The position numbers were made by a program, and so were the translations under genes. From a virus (taxonomy: Duplodnaviria; Caudoviricetes), in IMG/VR virus record IMGVR_UViG_2706796498_000001, positions 32,001 through 96,000 of that record: a stretch of DNA of 64,000 nt; one strand, given 5' to 3'. How positions within the stretch are numbered: position 1 is the first letter of the stretch; each line of letters begins with the position of its first letter. Positions 1 to 650 of this stretch are shown piece after piece. Under the pieces are notes generated by a model that saw nothing but the letters and a program-made list of their open reading frames with translations, ran no database searches and was not told the DNA's origin.

Positions 1-650
1 TCTTACAGTTAAATATCAATTCACCGTTTGAGTTAAGCCTACTTGATTAGGCAATGGGATAACGAGGTGAACGCCCCCCACAAGGCAAGATCTCATGAGG
101 CGCGTTACAATTACAGGTTTGGGAACTATAAATCAAGCAAGTTCCAGGTTCTATATCCAAGACTGGACTATCACAACTAATTAGCATATGGCTTACTAAT
201 TGGTTGCCAGAGAGGAATAAGGGTCTTAAAACCGATTGAGATGGTGTCATGAGCCTAACTATAAAATTCATGCGAAGCTACAAATTAGCCTGATTCATGG
301 GGGAACCAATTCAAACCTAGGGCCGTAGCTTTAGTATTAGTGAGTGCTACTATAAGGCACGGCTGGTAGGGAAGTTCCCTAATGGCCTTGTAATTGGAGA
401 TGGTTAGTCTTGATATGCTAATCATCAAGTTACAAGTAACCAAGGGGAGGAGCTGACAGACCAACGCTTGTTGGAATTAGTTAAGCGCAGAAGTAATCAG
501 TAATGGTGAAGATAATGCTTAGCTAGTTATGGTTAAAGATATTAGCAATAATATCAATAATCAGAAACCGGGACTTCCGGAGGTTTCTAAAAGCTGTTAG
601 ATTGATCCAGTTGAAATACGTTTCATAGTAAAGGTTCCCCTGTGATGTAC
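1..650 (+). ncRNA. Large ornate structured ncRNA candidate (GOLLD/ROOL-like); 5' end may lie upstream of the window
   Basis: No credible ORF. Many helices contain G-U pairs that work only on the + strand: 295-307/633-645, 174-184/196-206, 387-395/428-436, 399-407/418-426, 475-487/516-528, 453-459/594-600. GCAA (545-548), GUAA (500-503) and UACG (617-620) tetraloops, a loop-E motif (AGUA 492-495 / GAA 508-510), and loop-loop complementarity 42-47/132-137. Confidence 0.8.

What the first reader, a model, noticed from the sequence alone, without database searches (positions are those of the whole stretch)
1..650. Phage-encoded ~650-nt ornate, pseudoknotted noncoding RNA (GOLLD/ROOL-like)
Seen: an ORF-free region packed with helices whose G-U pairs make sense only on the + strand. 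These include a 13-bp long-range helix (TCATGGGGGAACC 295-307 / GGTTCCCCTGTGA 633-645), a 13-bp helix 475-487/516-528, the nested hairpin 387-436, and helices 174-206, 321-326/359-364, 453-459/594-600 and 563-569/582-588. There are GCAA, GUAA and UACG tetraloops and a loop-E motif (AGUA 492-495 / GAA 508-510). Two pseudoknots are possible: loop CTTGAT 42-47 with ATCAAG 132-137 in a neighbouring loop, and loop TCTTGATATG 408-417 with ATATCCAAGA 153-162. Known: GOLLD and ROOL are large ornate RNAs of unknown function found in Lactobacillales and their phages, and both have been shown to form multimeric RNA cages. Inference: this is a member of, or a new class parallel to, those RNAs in a lytic Herelle-type phage. 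I cannot tell which family from sequence alone.
Basis: partly seen in the sequence, partly recalled or inferred. Interest (0 to 1): 0.9.

Follow-up and report, generated by a model that had tools for sequence, protein, structure and literature searches.

The report
Second giant RNA of Lactobacillus phage
This lytic Lactobacillus phage carries, besides a known ROOL RNA, a second gene for an intricately folded non-coding RNA of about 800 bases whose base pairing is conserved in related phages and which matches no catalogued RNA family, adding a candidate to the short list of giant phage RNAs of unknown function.

Summary
The feature is real but larger than reported. The RNA starts about 105 nt before the window, behind a conserved extended -10 promoter, and runs to about window 685-705 (about 800 nt). 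It lies in a 106-kb Herelleviridae-like phage, probably of Limosilactobacillus fermentum. Eight homologues (64-99% identical) keep a 191-pair model: 97% of cells pair and 41 pairs change on both sides (shuffles 9.2 +/- 2.5; slid controls 1-4). The model has four well-supported pseudoknot or kissing contacts, two GNRA loops and a loop that stays self-complementary in all eight. It is neither ROOL nor GOLLD: no Rfam hit, hallmark motifs absent, and the phage's true ROOL lies 6.7 kb upstream. It is not an intron and not coding. Best guess: a new ornate RNA that self-assembles as ROOL and GOLLD do (about 0.5). Main rival: a replication-origin RNA, since the gene sits at the GC-skew minimum beside an AT-rich repeat tract (about 0.2). 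No expression data; covariation rests on three lineages. The scan noted this stretch in another window, and other large RNAs in other Lactobacillus phages; I found no homologue in five other Lactobacillus phage genomes.

The parts
1..705 (+). Part of the large ncRNA that lies inside the window. The whole gene is about G000 31,896-32,705 (window about -105 to 705), about 800 nt. The 3' end is uncertain (684-705; possibly read-through to 845).
   Evidence: Conservation begins just after the promoter; covariation in 8 homologues.
1..1 (+). OUTSIDE the window, upstream: sigma70-type promoter with extended -10 (G000 31,863-31,890) and a 5' domain of covarying hairpins at window -84 to -3, including a stem whose 6-nt loop is nearly invariant.
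   Evidence: Promoter scan; TG and -10 hexamer kept in all 8 homologues; 3 of 5 and 2 of 4 pairs compensatory.
20..71 (+). Stem 20-25/66-71, 32-35/60-63, 38-41/48-51, presenting loop 42-47.
   Evidence: Compensatory changes in L013.
42..137 (+). Loop-loop contact 42-47/132-137 (partner loop on hairpin 122-127/140-145).
   Evidence: Invariant in all 8 homologues; no covariation possible.
174..206 (+). Hairpin with a self-complementary loop hexamer at 185-190 (CAUAUG; CAUGUG in L198). Candidate self-kissing (dimer) site.
   Evidence: Stem re-sequenced in L013 with pairing kept; loop kept; the one change keeps self-pairing through G-U. Intermolecular use is inference.
248..272 (+). Hairpin 248-253/267-272 with a conserved A-rich loop.
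   Evidence: 2 compensatory pairs.
274..332 (+). Pseudoknot helix 274-281/325-332.
   Evidence: 8 pairs kept in all 8 homologues, 1 compensatory and 1 one-sided change.
292..644 (+). 12-bp long-range helix 296-307/633-644. Its 5' strand is the loop of a 4-bp hairpin 292-295/308-311, so it is a loop-based pseudoknot.
   Evidence: 3 compensatory pairs, one in L198 and L013 alike; 2 compensatory pairs in the closing hairpin. Whether the 4-bp closure coexists with the 12-bp helix is not shown.
344..360 (+). Hairpin 344-348/356-360.
   Evidence: 3 of 5 pairs compensatory.
361..612 (+). Long-range helices 361-366/607-612 and 453-459/594-600 enclosing the variable 3' domain.
   Evidence: 1 and 2 compensatory pairs plus one-sided changes.
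371..577 (+). Kissing loops 371-374/574-577 (GAAG/CUUC; CCCG/CGGG in L013).
   Evidence: 3 of 4 pairs compensatory in the anchored alignment. Depends on gap placement: the MAFFT alignment A5 put the gap elsewhere.
387..436 (+). Variable hairpin; L013 carries about 125 extra bases here.
475..588 (+). Peripheral hairpins with GNRA loops (500-503, 545-548) and hairpin 563-569/582-588.
659..682 (+). Invariant 17-mer (659-675) overlapping terminal hairpin 663-667/678-682; partner unknown.
   Evidence: Identical in all 8 homologues; no other 10-nt match or complement in the genome.
706..1260 (.). Adjacent, probably separate: hairpins 706-782 and 777-845, a 14-bp direct repeat (672, 808), and an AT-rich (22-31% GC) repeat tract. 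Candidate replication origin.

Best explanation
A stand-alone phage gene for a large ornate ncRNA of a family not in Rfam 15. Shown: its own conserved promoter-like site, no coding signal, and a conserved multi-pseudoknot fold on the + strand. Inferred: host sigma-A polymerase makes an abundant RNA of about 800 nt. Long-range helices (296/644, 274/332, 361/612, 453/600) lock a compact core. Exposed loops (the self-complementary hexamer 185-190, the kisses 42/137 and 371/577, two GNRA loops) serve partly as bridges between copies, so the RNA forms an RNA-only homo-oligomer as ROOL and GOLLD do. Such a particle would act in trans during infection, as a stable scaffold or decoy for host factors such as ribosomes, tRNAs or RNA-directed defence enzymes; the target is a guess.
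For: Covariation: 191 pairs, 97.2% of cells paired, 41 pairs changed on both sides against 9.2 +/- 2.5 in shuffles and 1-4 in slid controls (45 in the anchored alignment). The RNA core is more conserved than neighbouring genes (G000 vs L013: 75% and 84% against 63% and 56%; vs L198: 94% and 88% against 79% and 74%). Promoter kept in all 8. No codon bias. Found at the same locus in every related phage contig that covered it; L015 has lost ROOL but keeps this RNA. tRNA genes lie 1.3 kb away. Palindromic kissing loops form inter-chain bridges in GOLLD and OLE (PMC12286853).
Against: Only three independent lineages; most compensatory changes come from L013 alone; helices were chosen with these sequences in view (4,568 candidates enumerated), so short helices may be chance. 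Loop-loop pairs can be intramolecular. A 6-nt palindrome is weak (-3.6 kcal/mol), 12 such hexamers occur in the region, and in the window's own sequence part of it can pair locally. The tRNAs are on the opposite strand, so they are not co-transcribed. The gene sits at the probable origin, which favours a rival.
Confidence: 0.5

Rival explanations
1. Replication-origin RNA acting in cis. The transcript folds so that its 3' part invades or opens the adjacent AT-rich repeat tract and primes or licenses DNA replication, like ColE1 RNA II or T4 origin transcripts (from my own knowledge), or like the plasmid-origin motifs ARRPOF, GEBRO and PAGEV.
For: Cumulative GC skew has its minimum at G000 31,615, about 300 nt before the promoter. 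Third-position skew flips across the locus for genes of the same orientation (+ genes -0.18 left, +0.02 right; - genes +0.01 left, +0.18 right, small samples). The RNA points into a tract of 22-31% GC with direct repeats, one overlapping the RNA's 3' hairpin. No terminator found. Structured motifs at plasmid origins are described in PMC5737381.
Against: The site is also the main transcription switch, a natural place for a free-standing gene. The RNA-like strand downstream is C-rich, which does not favour R-loops (general knowledge). The fold is far more elaborate than known primer RNAs, and the tract beyond 850 varies among close relatives.
Confidence: 0.2
2. A very diverged ROOL or GOLLD paralogue that the Rfam models miss.
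For: The Rfam ROOL model misses the phage K lnc002 family, which carries ROOL motifs in ROOL order. Size is GOLLD-like. ROOL also has a 12-bp long-range helix.
Against: No hit for three divergent homologues even at E 5-10. The longer ROOL and GOLLD hallmark motifs are absent, or not shared at equivalent places by G000 and L013, allowing one mismatch. No similarity to the genome's own ROOL, a true GOLLD or the staphylococcal RNA. No long A/U linker at an equivalent place.
Confidence: 0.12
3. A monomeric catalytic or protein-binding RNA: a ribozyme or an OLE-like RNP scaffold, with all kissing contacts intramolecular and the invariant 17-mer as guide or substrate-binding strand.
For: Many invariant unpaired bases (154-161, 254-266, 281-287, 659-675) exceed what pairing needs.
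Against: No group I or II intron, RNase P, tmRNA or OLE hit. No conserved partner gene beyond small hypothetical ORFs. No target for the 17-mer in the phage genome.
Confidence: 0.13
4. Not an RNA gene: a coding region, a leader or a DNA structure.
For: A 45-codon TTG frame at 43-180 is open in 7 of 8 homologues.
Against: That frame has no ribosome-binding site, is frameshifted in L200, and changes evenly over codon positions (11/12/12; 19 non-synonymous against 2 synonymous codons), unlike the neighbouring true gene (27/14/67). The other three frames are broken. G-U pairs and GNRA loops indicate RNA. The next plausible gene is about 550 nt downstream, behind its own promoter.
Confidence: 0.05

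Closest known systems
ROOL RNA (Rfam RF03087; Weinberg 2017, PMC5737381; cryo-EM octamer, PMC12286853)
   Same: Large, multi-pseudoknot, promoter-driven ncRNA of Lactobacillus phages near tRNA genes; has a 12-bp long-range helix and kissing loops.
   Different: About 800 against about 580 nt; no model hit; ROOL motifs absent; different helix order; a true ROOL is encoded separately in the same genome (G000 24,752-25,297, 129 bits).
GOLLD RNA (Rfam RF02032; cryo-EM 14-mer, PMC12286853)
   Same: Similar length; variable 5' extensions and insertions; a self-complementary loop; a small terminal hairpin with a conserved loop.
   Different: No hit to the 3'-domain model; the consensus motifs seen are absent; not downstream of a tRNA on the same strand.
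Phage K lnc001 and lnc002 (Kayvirus, Herelleviridae; PMC9241854)
   Same: Two abundant long ncRNAs in one Herelleviridae genome, near tRNAs, one from its own promoter.
   Different: No detectable similarity by HMM, covariance model or pairwise alignment (one borderline pairwise score with lnc001 looked like noise on inspection).
Origin-associated structured motifs ARRPOF, GEBRO, PAGEV (PMC5737381) and ColE1 RNA II (own knowledge)
   Same: Structured non-coding element at a probable replication origin.
   Different: Those motifs average 223-349 nt and are on plasmids; no Rfam hit; this RNA is much larger and more pseudoknotted.

Membership tests
ROOL (RF03087) | Score above 99.1 bits to the covariance model | tested here: not met
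   No match at E <= 10 in this region; the same search finds the genome's real ROOL.
ROOL (RF03087) | Conserved motifs in order, flanking an A/U-rich linker | tested here: not met
   Consensus read; motif scan finds no shared ordered set in G000 and L013.
ROOL (RF03087) | Phage or prophage location near tRNA genes | tested here: met
   tRNA-Thr and tRNA-Ser 1.3 kb upstream, on the opposite strand.
GOLLD (RF02032) | Conserved 3' domain scoring above 150 bits | tested here: not met
   No match at E <= 10; positive control 275 bits in a Lactobacillales genome.
GOLLD (RF02032) | Hallmark 3'-domain motifs | tested here: not met
   The four longest motifs are absent with one mismatch allowed, in both G000 and L013.
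Large ornate ncRNAs (the kind) | Over 500 nt with many junctions and pseudoknots supported by covariation | tested here: met
   limited to three lineages.
Large ornate ncRNAs (the kind) | Abundant discrete transcript | not testable with these tools
Large ornate ncRNAs (the kind) | Protein-free homo-oligomer or cage | not testable with these tools
   Only indirect: a self-complementary loop and kissing loops.
Group I or II intron | Interrupts a gene; catalytic core motifs | tested here: not met
   Lies between divergent genes with its own promoter; no Rfam hit.
tmRNA, RNase P, OLE, raiA, HEARO | Rfam or ARAGORN match | tested here: not met
Origin primer RNA | Transcribed into the origin and hybridises to template DNA | tested here: inconclusive
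   Position fits; hybrid formation cannot be tested here.

The most novel reading that the evidence does not exclude
A further class of giant phage RNA, unrelated to ROOL and GOLLD, that forms its own RNA-only assembly or controls phage DNA replication from the origin, encoded in the same culturable lytic phage as a ROOL, so that the two can be deleted and compared in one genetic system.
Probability: 0.45. Interest if true: 0.88.

Novelty: new variant of a known kind. Interest (0 to 1): 0.74.

Why it matters
Only a few bacterial or phage ncRNAs over 500 nt are known, and the functions of ROOL and GOLLD are open. This is a structurally distinct one of about 800 nt with explicit, testable tertiary contacts. 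It shares a genome with ROOL, and a close relative (L015) has lost ROOL but kept it, which suggests a separate and more constant role. Its position at the probable origin gives a concrete functional hypothesis that ROOL and GOLLD lack. Limits: known so far from one phage clade, and expression is not shown.

Tried and rejected
Rfam scans of the window, the extended region and two divergent homologues: nothing relevant. IMG/VR by protein or DNA pattern: no homologue; the 60 pattern hits were chance. Metagenome pattern scan: 1 true homologue (L133) among 73. GTDB pattern scan: chance hits. Model R1 (window 5-260) on 10 phage records and 151 genomes of one Lactobacillales family, and blastn on 401 Lactobacillales genomes: only short noise hits. 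Domain HMMs on whole genomes of Bacchae, LP65, Lb338-1, LpeD and 3-521: none. A distant phage with the same flanking genes (L202) has a 2.6-kb ORF-poor stretch in this slot but no detectable homology. By eye I considered and dropped resemblances to group II domain 5, the group I R element and RNase P conserved regions, because the required partner strands are missing. Literature searches found no description of this RNA.

Full report
Setting. The window is bases 32,001-96,000 of a complete 106,071-bp virus record with terminal repeats. Its portal protein is 40-43% identical to those of Lactobacillus Herelleviridae. A homologue of the gene next to the feature occurs in a Limosilactobacillus fermentum assembly (P0194). 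From memory the size equals that of phage LfeInf; I did not verify this. The feature lies where leftward genes (DNA polymerase, two tRNAs, two hypothetical ORFs) meet rightward genes (LysM transglycosylase, holin, endolysin, terminase).

Boundaries. A promoter-like site with an extended -10 lies at G000 31,863-31,890, and its TG and -10 hexamer are kept in all homologues. High identity among close relatives starts just after it. The transcript therefore probably begins near window -105. Conservation with the most distant homologue runs through an invariant 17-mer at 659-675 and a short motif near 698-705 that could pair with the 5' end. The unit is about 800 nt, not 650. No terminator was found. 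The region -105 to 660 folds with z -4.7 on the + strand and -3.3 on the - strand.

Homologues. Using the terminase and the flanking 173-aa protein I fetched related phage contigs and one metagenome hit. Eight full-length copies were aligned: six at 95-99%, L198 at 85% and L013 at 64%. The RNA core is more conserved than the neighbouring genes. Substitutions are spread evenly over codon positions; three small frames are broken, and the fourth (43-180) shows no coding signal.

Structure. I enumerated helices and built a 191-pair model. On the tool alignment, 97.2% of cells pair and 41 pairs change on both sides, against 9.2 +/- 2.5 in shuffles and 1-4 when partners are slid. The caveats are real: the model was derived from these sequences, there are three effective lineages, and L013 supplies most changes. 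Still, L198 gives its own compensations in the 5' hairpins, in 296-307/633-644, 344-348/356-360, 453-459/594-600 and the variable hairpins. Four crossing contacts stand out: 42-47/132-137 (invariant), 274-281/325-332, 296-307/633-644, and a kiss 371-374/574-577 in which three of four pairs switch together in L013 (this one depends on gap placement). Two loops stay GNRA while changing sequence. The hexamer at 185-190 is self-complementary in all eight, on a stem that is re-sequenced in L013. Helix 321-326/359-364, the second pseudoknot and the loop-E motif do not hold in the divergent copies.

Family. Rfam gives nothing for the window, the extended region, L198 or L013. A directed ROOL search of the genome finds one ROOL, 6.7 kb upstream of the window on the other strand (129 bits), and nothing here. 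A directed GOLLD search finds nothing, while a control genome scores 275 bits. The hallmark motifs of both families are missing. Rfam does miss diverged ROOL-like RNAs (phage K lnc002 and its relatives), so a remote relationship is not excluded, but no comparison I ran links this RNA to ROOL, GOLLD or the staphylococcal RNAs. It was not found in five other Lactobacillus Herelleviridae genomes or in sampled Lactobacillales genomes. L014 carries both RNAs; L015 lacks ROOL and keeps this one.

Mechanism. Shown: a conserved non-coding, + strand, multi-pseudoknot structure behind a promoter-like site. Inferred: an abundant transcript that folds without protein and uses exposed loops as bridges between copies, as ROOL and GOLLD do; palindromic loops form such bridges in GOLLD and OLE (PMC12286853). 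I put this at about 0.5. The role of such particles is unknown even for ROOL and GOLLD; encapsulation of tRNAs, ribosomes or proteins has been suggested, and deleting ROOL in L. salivarius gave no defined function (PMC5643018). The strongest rival comes from position. The GC-skew minimum is about 300 nt before the promoter, third-position skew flips across the locus regardless of gene strand, and the RNA points into an AT-rich repeat tract. An origin-priming role gets about 0.2. A monomeric ribozyme or RNP (0.13), a diverged ROOL or GOLLD (0.12) and a non-RNA explanation (0.05) share the rest. That the feature is a real structured RNA gene outside Rfam's present families I put near 0.9.

Novelty. 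No paper in the searched library describes it. Earlier notes of this scan flag the same stretch from an overlapping window, and other large RNAs in other Lactobacillus phages; the look-up found no look-alike in other genomes. I file it as a new variant of a known kind: a new family among the large ornate phage RNAs. Interest 0.74, held back by narrow distribution, shallow covariation and no expression data.

Noticed in passing
G000 24,752-25,297 (-), 6.7 kb upstream of the window; L002: A true ROOL RNA (129.4 bits) with its own promoter-like site and terminator hairpin; present in L014, absent from L015.
   Followed up: partly
L011 2980-3600 (-) (phage K lnc002); L189-L193: This RNA is conserved across Kayvirus, Silviavirus, Sepunavirus, Sciuriunavirus and Baoshanvirus (333 records) and carries ROOL consensus motifs in ROOL order around an A/U-rich linker, yet the Rfam ROOL model misses it. 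Probably a diverged ROOL subfamily.
   Followed up: partly
L156 (Lb338-1 21,866-22,438) and L157 (3-521 27,084-27,643): ROOL RNAs over the cut-off in two more Lactobacillus Herelleviridae; in 3-521 it lies about 500 nt from the transglycosylase gene, a gene type that also lies near this RNA in G000.
   Followed up: no
L012 1633-1769 (-): The 3' end of phage K lnc001 scores 43.4 bits on DUF3800-I, just under the 44.2 cut-off.
   Followed up: no
window 706-1260: Hairpins 706-782 and 777-845 (fold z -4.8 for 700-899), a 14-bp direct repeat at 672 and 808 found nowhere else in the genome, and AT-rich repeats; next to the GC-skew minimum. Candidate replication origin.
   Followed up: partly
L202 3540-6190: A distant phage with the same flanking genes has a 2.6-kb ORF-poor, hairpin-rich stretch in this slot, with no Rfam hit and no detectable homology to this RNA.
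   Followed up: partly
L001 6720-6860 (-), G000 about 30,720-30,860: A GC-rich non-coding stretch just upstream of tRNA-Thr; longer in L014 and L015.
   Followed up: no
L016 66-2570: In one relative the 173-aa gene has different upstream neighbours and the RNA is not on the 3.3-kb contig, so the adjacency is not universal.
   Followed up: no
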